Source of the DNA: Candidatus Bathyarchaeota archaeon
GTDB lineage: Archaea > Thermoproteota > Bathyarchaeia > Bathyarchaeales > DTEX01
Reading direction: 5' to 3'
Length of the DNA: 64,000 nucleotides
Assembly: GCA_963714275.1 (NCBI GenBank)
Contig: CAVQNT010000002.1
Coordinates: 1-64,000, forward strand
DNA letters: not shown here
Content: a report on this DNA, generated by a model with database tools, continued

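What the first reader, a model, noticed from the sequence alone, without database searches (positions are those of the whole stretch)
50984..60494. IclR-controlled operon joining an HmfF-like UbiD, a remodelled QPRTase, a molybdopterin-domain protein, an unknown His-rich enzyme and a composite ferredoxin: candidate undescribed anaerobic heteroaromatic-acid pathway
Seen: nine co-oriented genes downstream of an exact TTGACA-17-TATAAT promoter and two operator palindromes, in the order iclR, ferredoxin, unknown, MhpD-type hydratase, TAXI SBP, molybdopterin-domain protein, NadC-like, M24-fold, UbiD. Established: UbiD enzymes with EHLLLGAIPREA/CRYH-type motifs resemble HmfF, the 2,5-furandicarboxylate decarboxylase, and MhpD-family enzymes act on ring-opened 2-oxo-dienoates. 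The aerobic Trudgill-pathway partners (furoyl-CoA synthetase HmfD, Mo-dehydrogenase HmfABC, HmfE) are absent from this window. Inference: this gene set matches no pathway I can name and may encode O2-independent uptake, decarboxylation and ring opening of a furan- or pyridine-type dicarboxylate, with 2-oxoacid products feeding the nearby oxidoreductases.
Basis: partly seen in the sequence, partly recalled or inferred. Interest (0 to 1): 0.85.

Follow-up and report, generated by a model that had tools for sequence, protein, structure and literature searches.

The report, continued
Rival explanations
1. Pyridine-carboxylate pathway with N-phosphoribosyl activation. The UbiD trims a pyridine di- or tricarboxylate such as dipicolinate. 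The NadC-like enzyme uses PRPP to turn the product into a pyridinium mononucleotide. The LarA-fold protein binds this nucleotide as its substrate, in the pocket that holds the nickel-pincer nucleotide in LarA. The ferredoxin reduces the ring. Hydrolases (M24-fold, MogA/CinA-like) open it and release ammonia and ribose phosphate. The resulting 2-oxo-enoate goes to the hydratase.
For: - The NadC-like family keeps most QPRT ligand positions: K99, S101, G102, K126, K159 and D211 are invariant in 15 of 15, and R148 in at least 90% (alignment to human QPRT).
- The LarA fold is built around a pyridinium dicarboxylate nucleotide (PMC12611868, passages).
- The LarA-like protein has many invariant arginines: R137, R143, R147, R158, R162 and R172.
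- C-N hydrolase-type accessories are present: the M24-fold protein in 8 of 26 loci, an FmdA/AmdA-family gene in L001, and PxpB/C in the window and L012.
- No Mo-hydroxylase is present to activate the ring in another way (49 window ORFs scanned).
- The hydratase's best solved match is the C7-diacid enzyme HpcG, which would suit a dipicolinate skeleton. That last link is my inference.
Against: - The NadC-like gene is single-copy where the reductase pair has 2-4 copies. That fits a helper better than a first pathway step, though one promiscuous enzyme could also serve several reductases.
- No nitrogen-removing enzyme belongs to the invariant core.
- The UbiD keeps the HmfF histidine that PMC7976604 ties to furan specificity.
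- The QPRT arginine aligned to W/F/V (R138 by my recalled numbering) is lost, and TIGR00078 is below its cut-off.
Confidence: 0.25
2. A generic 2-hydroxyacid/2-oxoacid oxidoreductase. The LarA-fold protein performs the usual LarA hydride abstraction from a 2-hydroxy acid, but the ferredoxin partner carries the electrons away or supplies them. The result is a net dehydrogenase or reductase that feeds the neighbouring 2-oxoacid:ferredoxin oxidoreductases. On this reading UbiD and the hydratase are loosely linked neighbours.
For: - Characterised LarA enzymes act on 2-hydroxy acids through a 2-oxo intermediate (PMC12611868, passages; PMC11770544, abstract in the listing).
- OFOR genes lie in 10 of 26 loci, and there are three OFOR sets in the window.
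- IlvD/Edd-type dehydratases occur in 3 loci, and a second LarA homologue in 4 loci.
Against: - This does not explain the strict co-occurrence with the MogA/CinA-like protein, nor the NadC-like gene beside it in most loci, given that LarC for the ordinary cofactor is near-universal in the phylum.
- It does not explain the repeated adjacency of different UbiD subfamilies: 9 of 26 loci and 4 of 13 paralogue loci.
- Equivalents of the two LarA catalytic histidines were not established.
Confidence: 0.15
3. A cofactor-maturation system for UbiD in anaerobes. The LarA-like/ferredoxin pair oxidises reduced prenylated FMN (itself a mononucleotide) to the active iminium form without oxygen. The MogA/CinA-like protein handles the flavin nucleotide.
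For: - UbiD genes of several subfamilies lie next to the pair: 27-28% and 54% identity in L034, L036, L037 and L038, and 31-85% in 9 of 26 loci.
- Dedicated prFMN maturases and chaperones exist (PMC13040415 and PMC10865409; abstract starts in the search listing only).
- The MoCF-type domain matches human FAD synthase isoform 2: 25.3 bits in the sequence search and Z 12.3 in the fold search. That this part of FAD synthase is a flavin-nucleotide-handling domain is my recall.
Against: - 17 of 26 loci and 9 of 13 paralogue loci have no UbiD within reach.
- The tight link to the hydratase and to the NadC-like gene is unexplained.
- The fused GltD-like NAD(P)H modules suggest electron input rather than removal.
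Confidence: 0.05
4. The copy in this window is a decaying, non-functional remnant: the frameshifts in iclR, the ferredoxin and the hydratase are real.
For: - I count at least 7 frame changes in about 2.2 kb of these three genes and none that breaks an ORF in about 6.5 kb of the other six genes. That is uneven for random error; the arithmetic is mine.
Against: - Contigs from four wetland metagenome runs of four studies, 90-99% alike, differ by an indel at the hydratase and ferredoxin frameshift sites.
- The indels sit beside short G, C or A runs.
- Other genes in the window are frameshifted too: PxpB and OFOR alpha.
- The second SerS of the genome, on C6, is also split over two frames.
Confidence: 0.05

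Closest known systems
LarA superfamily (nickel-pincer-nucleotide-dependent 2-hydroxyacid racemases and epimerases; PDB 5HUQ, 9EIA, 7S91, 9Q3J)
   Same: - Same two-domain fold: Z 14.9-15.9 with 310-322 residues aligned.
- An invariant Lys-x15-His pair at the spacing of the cofactor-tethering lysine and the nickel-binding histidine.
- LarC is present in host genomes.
   Different: - No Pfam Lar_N match and no sequence hit to any PDB chain.
- Always paired with, and predicted to bind, an iron-sulfur protein, or an NAD(P)H/FAD/Fe-S fusion in paralogues. In the LarA papers I opened, a term search for "ferredoxin" gave 0 occurrences in two.
- Strictly co-occurs with a MogA/CinA-like protein, and a QPRT-like gene lies beside it in most loci.
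- The catalytic histidine pair was not established.
HmfF, the 2,5-furandicarboxylate decarboxylase of Pelotomaculum thermopropionicum (PDB 6H6V) and Cupriavidus basilensis
   Same: - Full-length match at 476.7 bits and the same length (447 against 448 aa).
- H296, R304 and R331 are conserved.
- UbiX is encoded next to the orthologue in L016 and elsewhere in G003.
   Different: - The genomic partners differ. No furoyl-CoA synthetase or Mo furoyl-CoA dehydrogenase (Trudgill pathway) was found among 49 window ORFs.
- The neighbours are instead the LarA-like/ferredoxin module and an MhpD-type hydratase.
- Activity is untested.
Quinolinate phosphoribosyltransferase NadC (human QPRT 2JBM; TIGR00078)
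   Same: - Both QRPTase domains are present.
- The SGIA(S/T) loop, the HR motif, the LDKN stretch, the acidic residues aligned to the QPRT VEVEC and LLDN motifs, and the SGG loop all align.
   Different: - 102 bits against the 198.4 equivalog cut-off.
- The arginine of the QPRT GTRKT motif reads W, F or V, and the arginine before SGIAS reads K.
- In two of five genomes checked (G234, G112) it occurs alongside more distant NadC-type genes of 22-25% identity.
Lower meta-cleavage pathway (MhpD/XylJ hydratase, 4-oxalocrotonate decarboxylase, HpcG, DmpG/DmpF)
   Same: - The hydratase scores 166-205 bits to HpcG, NahK, 2-oxopent-4-enoate hydratase and MhpD.
- DmpF- and DmpG-type genes follow it in L019 and L021.
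   Different: - No ring-cleaving dioxygenase matched among the window ORFs and the locus ORFs I scanned against Pfam (not all locus ORFs were scanned), and the hosts are anaerobe-type MAGs.
- The dienoate would have to arise without oxygen.
Dihydropyrimidine dehydrogenase and GltD-type NAD(P)H/FAD/Fe-S electron-input modules
   Same: - In four paralogue loci a Fer4_20 plus Pyr_redox_2 module lies in one open frame with the ferredoxin partner.
- That matches the general logic, recalled, of NAD(P)H to FAD to Fe-S chain to a ring-reducing site.
   Different: - The catalytic subunit here has a LarA fold, not an FMN barrel.
- The window's own ferredoxin lacks the flavin module.

Membership tests
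UbiD family, HmfF clade | UbiD N-terminal, Rift-related and C-terminal domains, and the family HMM above its cut-off | tested here: met
   PF20695, PF01977 and PF20696 all match. TIGR00148 scores 365.3 bits against a cut-off of 244.85.
UbiD family, HmfF clade | Closer to characterised HmfF than to UbiD, AroY, VdcC, Fdc1 or Pcd | tested here: met
   6H6V (PtHmfF, identity confirmed in PMC8988006) scores 476.7 bits. AnInD scores 194.5, VdcC 158, AroY 157, E. coli UbiD 152, Fdc1 about 100 and Pcd 85. No tree with named references was built, because reference sequences could not be brought in.
UbiD family, HmfF clade | HmfF substrate-site residues (His296/297, Arg304, Arg331) | tested here: met
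   All three align identically. The histidine's role is stated in PMC7976604 (passage). The roles of the two arginines are recalled.
UbiD family, HmfF clade | A prFMN supply (UbiX) in the host | tested here: inconclusive
   No PF02441 match in G000, which is 91% complete, but G000 is probably not the host. G003 and four other module genomes each have a UbiX-sized gene. In L016, UbiX directly follows the UbiD.
UbiD family, HmfF clade | 2,5-furandicarboxylate decarboxylase activity | not testable with these tools
   This needs an enzyme assay.
LarA superfamily (NPN-dependent enzymes) | LarA two-domain fold | tested here: met
   Foldseek ranks 1-15 shown are all LarA family. VIA-align gives Z 15.9-12.8 for five LarA-type chains; the next hit has Z 7.9. 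The model's mean pLDDT is 69.8.
LarA superfamily (NPN-dependent enzymes) | Match to the family's sequence models (Lar_N, LarA_C) | tested here: not met
   No Pfam family at E <= 0.01 and no NCBIfam family at E <= 0.001. The profile search of the PDB gave no LarA hit at E <= 10. hhalign against three LarA homologues gave 4.7% probability.
LarA superfamily (NPN-dependent enzymes) | The cofactor-tethering Lys and the Ni-binding His, 16 residues apart | tested here: inconclusive
   K150 and H166 are invariant in 21 of 21 sequences at the right spacing. The weak hhalign alignment pairs H166 with the LarA nickel histidine. The structural model is unreliable across 140-174.
LarA superfamily (NPN-dependent enzymes) | Two catalytic histidines (His108 and His174 of L. 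plantarum LarA) | tested here: inconclusive
   H130 and H142 are invariant and H140 is not. No reliable alignment assigns them.
LarA superfamily (NPN-dependent enzymes) | NPN biosynthesis genes in the host | tested here: met
   LarC (PF01969) is in 5 of 5 module genomes and in all 13 LarA-like-positive genomes of the sample. It is also in 362 of 401 sampled genomes overall, so this does not discriminate. LarB and LarE were not searched.
Quinolinate phosphoribosyltransferase (NadC) | Equivalog-level HMM score | tested here: not met
   TIGR00078 scores 102 bits against a cut-off of 198.4.
Quinolinate phosphoribosyltransferase (NadC) | Quinolinate-binding arginines and lysines | tested here: not met
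   The arginine of the GTRKT motif reads W, F or V in 15 of 15 sequences, and the arginine before SGIAS reads K. The lysines are kept. The residue roles are recalled.
Quinolinate phosphoribosyltransferase (NadC) | Type II PRTase fold with PRPP-site acidic residues | tested here: met
   Both QRPTase domains match. D211 is invariant in 15 of 15. The glutamate aligned to the second E of the QPRT VEVEC motif is present in 13 of 15 by my reading of the alignment.
MogA/MoaB/CinA-N (MoCF_biosynth) domain | The domain's fold and its Pfam model | tested here: met
   PF00994 scores 56.4 bits against a cut-off of 26.6. VIA-align gives Z 13.2-15.3 to Mog, MoaB, Cnx1G and CinA over residues 130-278. TIGR00177 scores 56.6 bits, below its 85.35 cut-off.
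MhpD/HpcG/4-oxalocrotonate decarboxylase family | FAA_hydrolase domain and close similarity to characterised members | tested here: met
   PF01557 matches. The intact L012 orthologue scores 166-205 bits to HpcG, NahK, 2-oxopent-4-enoate hydratase and MhpD. Whether it is a hydratase or a decarboxylase was not resolved.
Trudgill 2-furoate pathway (HmfABCDE) | Furoyl-CoA synthetase, Mo-dependent furoyl-CoA dehydrogenase and a CoA-ester hydrolase next to HmfF | tested here: not met
   None of the 49 window ORF translations matched an AMP-binding ligase, a xanthine-dehydrogenase-type enzyme or a crotonase. Four ORFs were left unscanned.
M24 metallopeptidases (prolidase type) | Five metal ligands (Asp, Asp, His, Glu, Glu) | tested here: not met
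   Against prolidase 1wy2, the GHG histidine reads Y and the IEPG stretch reads FQTT. The two Asp residues and the final Glu align. The assignment of ligand roles is recalled.

The most novel reading that the evidence does not exclude
The LarA-fold protein and its iron-sulfur partner found a new class of nickel-pincer-type enzymes. On this reading they are true reductases rather than racemases: electrons from ferredoxin or NAD(P)H are turned into a hydride on a pyridinium-nucleotide cofactor. The cofactor is made by the system's own QPRT-like and MogA-like branch. The hydride opens heteroaromatic acid rings without oxygen, ATP or CoA esters. That would be a further strategy for anaerobic dearomatisation beside the aryl-CoA reductases.
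Probability: 0.2. Interest if true: 0.92.

Novelty: new variant of a known kind. Interest (0 to 1): 0.78.

Why it matters
How strict anaerobes degrade furan and N-heteroaromatic acids beyond the first steps is largely unknown, as far as I recall. Such acids include furoate from furfural, dipicolinate from spores, and pyrrole and pyridine carboxylates.

This module offers a concrete, testable candidate. It occurs in 13 of 401 sampled genomes of one phylum, some with 2-4 paralogues. Near-identical sequence turns up in wetland, freshwater-sediment and soil metagenomes.

- For nickel-pincer and LarA biochemistry, it would extend the family from racemases to redox enzymes with dedicated electron-transfer partners, and perhaps to a new cofactor branch.
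- For UbiD research, it gives a possible physiological context for the anaerobe HmfF-type enzymes.
- Furandicarboxylate chemistry is also of interest for bio-based plastics.

Tried and rejected
Searches and comparisons that led nowhere:
- The sequence-profile search of the PDB with the LarA-like family found only two chance-level hits, at E 0.3 and 0.67.
- BLASTP of the LarA-like protein against the window's own Lar_N/DUF362 protein (40549-41952) found nothing. That protein is also not an orthologue of the second LarA homologue seen in L002, L004, L015 and L023.
- Rfam found nothing in 50800-60800. In the whole window it found only two tRNA-Ser genes.
- Consensus terminator hits in the region were at chance level: 14 found against 13.7 expected.
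- LarC co-occurrence does not discriminate, because LarC is in 362 of 401 genomes.

Literature:
- Nine searches found no paper linking these families or describing the pathway.
- The 2026 Nat Chem paper on a new nickel-pincer enzyme family concerns aldo-keto reductases, not this family (abstract).
- Term searches for phosphoribosyl, NadC and ferredoxin gave 0 occurrences in PMC11770544 and PMC7583248.
- Supplementary files were not consulted. They may hold LarA-subgroup lists that include this family.

Contig boundary:
- I looked for a mobile-element boundary at C2:80-81 kb. There was no tRNA, and no integrase or transposase among 10 ORFs. I dropped the idea of a genomic island in favour of a chimeric join.

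Left unexplained or undone:
- A joint in contigs of two runs skips 57432 to 58783. The flanks are short (40-45 letters) and depth is low (3.4 and 5.7). I did not treat it as a real deletion of the LarA-like gene.
- I did not build a UbiD tree with named references, because reference sequences could not be entered. PDB bit scores stand in for it.
- The N-terminal 128 residues of the MoCF-domain protein were not folded alone, so their fold is untested.
- I did not search for LarB or LarE.
- I did not use the search for homologous proteins or the search of protein representatives, so the total size and public naming of the LarA-like family were not measured. One ESM Atlas cluster near it carries the automatic name "LarA-like N-terminal domain-containing protein".

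Full report
**1. What is in the sequence**

- The promoter is the only 12-of-12 match to TTGACA-17-TATAAT among seven promoter-like sites in 50800-60800.
- The total number of weak promoter-like sites is at chance level (7 found, 8.1 expected from shuffles). The exact match, not the count, is what carries weight.
- Two palindromes sharing a TTCTTA/TAAGAA half-site lie between the -10 box and the iclR start.
- An MFS transporter gene follows the UbiD on the same strand (49531-50820).
- PxpC and PxpB-like genes precede the promoter.

**2. Frameshifts**

In the sequence as written, iclR, the ferredoxin and the hydratase are not intact.

- DNA alignment with the two closest loci shows single-base gaps in the hydratase. 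In the ferredoxin it shows +1, +2 and +1 insertions, next to short G, C or A runs.
- tblastn with intact orthologues shows frame changes in iclR (at least 2), the ferredoxin (3), the hydratase (2), PxpB (1) and the alpha subunit of the nearby 2-oxoacid:ferredoxin oxidoreductase (1).
- I laid contigs from four wetland metagenome runs, from four studies and 90-99% alike, on 56600-60500. They carry an extra C behind 56731 (two runs) and behind 57132 (one run). They lack one base at 59491 and 59075 (all four runs) and at 59122 and 59140 (two runs). These are the hydratase and ferredoxin frameshift sites. The iclR sites are not among the rows shown.
- I conclude that the breaks are most likely assembly errors, or at least private to this assembly.
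- Their concentration in three genes (at least 7 in about 2.2 kb, none that breaks an ORF in about 6.5 kb of the other six genes; my arithmetic) is not fully explained.

**3. The host is probably not the genome the contig is filed with**

- The first 80 kb or so of contig C2 have GC 0.50-0.55. The genome mean is 0.435 (SD 0.034). Eight of the ten 10-kb bins above 0.49 lie in this stretch.
- The stretch holds housekeeping genes: seryl-tRNA synthetase, FtsK, LolA and a MiaB-type enzyme.
- The genome has a second, frameshifted seryl-tRNA synthetase on C6.
- The window's synthetase is 95% identical to that of G003, the genome that holds locus L012. It is only 41% and 38% identical to those of two same-genus relatives of G000.
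- The LarA-like gene was found in 0 of 6 same-genus genomes and 1 of 18 same-family genomes.
- No tRNA, integrase or transposase marks the boundary near 80-81 kb.
- I read this as a chimeric join or mis-binned end. For that reason, the lack of UbiX and LarC matches in G000 says nothing about the operon.
- G003 and four other module genomes have both genes.

**4. Conservation**

A scan of one genome per species with the 430-aa protein returned 26 loci at 46-88% identity. All are MAGs. Most are labelled Desulfobacteraceae, Desulfarculaceae, Syntrophaceae, Desulfomonilaceae, Syntrophobacter, Syntrophales or Thermodesulfobacteriota. Two are labelled Bacillota or Negativicutes.

tblastn of the window's proteins against these 26 loci gave:

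| Gene | Loci with a match (of 26) |
|---|---|
| Ferredoxin | 25 (the miss, L022, starts inside the LarA-like gene) |
| NadC-like | 21 |
| MoCF-domain protein | 20 |
| Hydratase | 20 |
| IclR | 12 |
| UbiD | 9 (five at 45-85% identity, four at about 31%) |
| M24-fold protein | 8 |
| TAXI protein | 4 |

- Four of the five loci without a NadC-like match are short or cut contigs. L003 is a full-length locus without NadC-like, MoCF or hydratase matches.
- Gene order varies, but two blocks persist: ferredoxin with LarA-like, and NadC-like with MoCF and the hydratase.
- Frequent neighbours are 2-oxoacid:ferredoxin oxidoreductases (10 of 26 loci plus the window), tungsten-type aldehyde:ferredoxin oxidoreductases (5 of 26) and Liv-type ABC, TAXI/DctM and BenE transporters.
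- In L019 and L021, DmpF- and DmpG-type genes (acylating acetaldehyde dehydrogenase and 4-hydroxy-2-oxovalerate aldolase) directly follow the hydratase.
- In L016 the operon reads beta-carbonic anhydrase, ferredoxin, LarA-like, NadC-like, MoCF, hydratase, UbiD, UbiX.

**5. The unknown protein has a LarA fold**

- It has no Pfam, NCBIfam or PDB sequence match.
- It is very strongly conserved (alignment A3, mean column identity 79%).
- An AlphaFold2 model has mean pLDDT 69.8 and pTM 0.72, with low confidence at 140-174 and 248-300.
- Foldseek ranks 1-15 shown are all lactate or malate racemases or LarA-like enzymes, best E 4.6e-8.
- An independent all-against-all aligner gives Z 15.9, 15.4, 15.2, 14.9 and 12.8 for five LarA-type chains. 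The next hit has Z 7.9.
- The ESM Atlas lists a cluster automatically named "LarA-like N-terminal domain-containing protein" at score 0.97.
- Across 21 orthologues and paralogues, H130, R137, H142, R143, R147, K150, Y156, R158, E160, R162, H166 and R172 are invariant.
- K150 and H166 are 16 residues apart. That equals the spacing of the lysine that tethers the nickel-pincer nucleotide and the histidine that binds nickel in LarA (printed alignment; residue roles in PMC12611868, passages).
- The profile-profile alignment is weak (4.7% probability), although it pairs H166 with the LarA nickel histidine.
- Membership in the LarA family by sequence model is therefore not met. Fold similarity is met. 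Cofactor use is open.

**6. It is a redox enzyme with a dedicated partner**

- The ferredoxin family has eight cysteines in two CxxCxxCxxxC motifs, plus a BFD-type cysteine set (alignment A7).
- A sample of 401 genomes from the phylum of G001 gave 13 with LarA-like genes. Several hold 2-4 paralogues at 40-56% identity.
- In 13 paralogue loci, all 15 copies have a ferredoxin match beside them.
- A complex prediction for the L012 pair, using my own alignments, scored 0.93 (median of three runs). The best of three controls scored 0.00.
- That mark was reached by 58 of 80 solved complexes and 2 of 110 mismatched pairs in the tool's calibration. The runs agree in at least 88% of contacts, and the partner pLDDT is at least 90.
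- The tightest contacts join the LarA-like loop 157-175 (which carries the conserved histidine) to ferredoxin residues 133-142 (which carry two BFD cysteines). This is a model, not a measurement.
- In L037, L043, L044 and L045 the ferredoxin-like part sits at the end of a 669-706-aa open frame. Its first 430-470 residues are Fer4, Fer4_20 and Pyr_redox_2, the GltD/dihydropyrimidine-dehydrogenase type of NAD(P)H/FAD/Fe-S input module (4 of 4 tested; Fer2_BFD scored at E <= 1e-5 in 2 of 4).
- I infer that electrons flow through an iron-sulfur chain into the LarA-fold active site.

**7. The NadC-like and MoCF proteins**

- The NadC-like protein has both QPRT domains but scores below the NadC equivalog cut-off.
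- Aligned to human QPRT, it keeps the SGIAS loop, the HR motif, the lysines, the acidic residues and the SGG loop. It replaces the arginine of the GTRKT motif by W, F or V, and the arginine before SGIAS by K.
- The MoCF protein has a MogA/MoaB/CinA-N-like C-terminal domain (Z 13.2-15.3). Its 128-residue N-terminal part has no sequence match, and its fold was not tested.
- In the same 401 genomes, the MoCF protein (E <= 1e-30) occurs in 12. All 12 are among the 13 LarA-like-positive genomes. The exception, G389, has only a broken LarA-like fragment at a contig end.
- Copy numbers for LarA-like: NadC-like: MoCF are 4:1:1 (G234), 3:1:1 (G112), 3:1:2 (G204) and 2:1:1 (G001).
- One NadC-like/MoCF pair serves loci that hold two or three ferredoxin/LarA-like pairs (L034+L035, L036).
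- This pattern fits a shared helper, such as cofactor synthesis or insertion, better than a substrate-specific step. A promiscuous first step is not excluded.

**8. The UbiD, the M24-fold protein and the hydratase**

- The UbiD's best solved relative is PtHmfF (6H6V; 476.7 bits; residues 4-447 against 3-447). The next is the indole-3-carboxylate decarboxylase at 194.5 bits.
- The identity of 6H6V as PtHmfF is stated in PMC8988006 (passages).
- H296, R304 and R331 align identically. PMC7976604 (passage) says the HmfF histidine is key to specificity for furan-type substrates.
- The M24-fold protein is closest to archaeal prolidases (190 bits). It shows Y for the GHG histidine, SE for HE and FQTT for the IEPG stretch, so it is unlikely to be a standard dinuclear peptidase. 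The ligand roles are recalled.
- The hydratase orthologue matches HpcG, NahK, 2-oxopent-4-enoate hydratase and MhpD at 166-205 bits.

**9. Mechanism: inference, and my commitment**

- A hydride delivered to C5 of 2-furoate would give a carbanion that can expel the ring oxygen. The direct product would be 2-hydroxypenta-2,4-dienoate, the substrate of MhpD-type hydratases.
- The DmpG/DmpF, AOR and OFOR neighbours would then take it to acetyl-CoA units.
- This single-hydride scheme uses the parts that recur: HmfF-type decarboxylase, a hydride-carrying LarA-type site reloaded by iron-sulfur clusters, and the hydratase.
- It leaves the NadC-like and MoCF proteins as makers of the pyridinium-nucleotide cofactor.
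- It would work equally for pyrrole- and thiophene-2-carboxylates, which could explain the paralogues.
- I give this 0.35.
- The main rival (0.25) takes the NadC-like enzyme at face value. A pyridine carboxylate is N-phosphoribosylated, which makes the ring reducible, and the LarA-fold pocket binds it as a substrate. The C-N hydrolase-type accessories favour that reading: the M24-fold protein, PxpB/C, and an FmdA/AmdA-family gene in L001.
- Lesser rivals are a plain 2-hydroxyacid/2-oxoacid:ferredoxin oxidoreductase (0.15), an anaerobic prFMN maturase (0.05) and a decayed remnant (0.05).

**10. Comparison with what is known, and novelty**

- No paper found in nine searches joins LarA or nickel-pincer enzymes with QPRT-like genes or ferredoxins, or describes this cluster.
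- The LarA enzymes described in the papers I opened are racemases and epimerases. In the two where I searched the term "ferredoxin", it gave 0 occurrences.
- The Trudgill furoate genes are absent from the window.
- Each part belongs to a known fold family. The fixed combination, and a LarA-fold protein wired to an electron-transfer chain, are new as far as I could search.
- I rate it a new variant of a known kind, with interest 0.78.
- The boldest reading is a new class of nickel-pincer-type reductases that open heteroaromatic rings. I give it 0.2.

**11. Limits**

- All functional statements beyond family assignment are inference.
- Counts over related genomes are not independent events.
- The 401-genome sample is one phylum.
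- The complex score used my own alignments, so the calibration holds only roughly.

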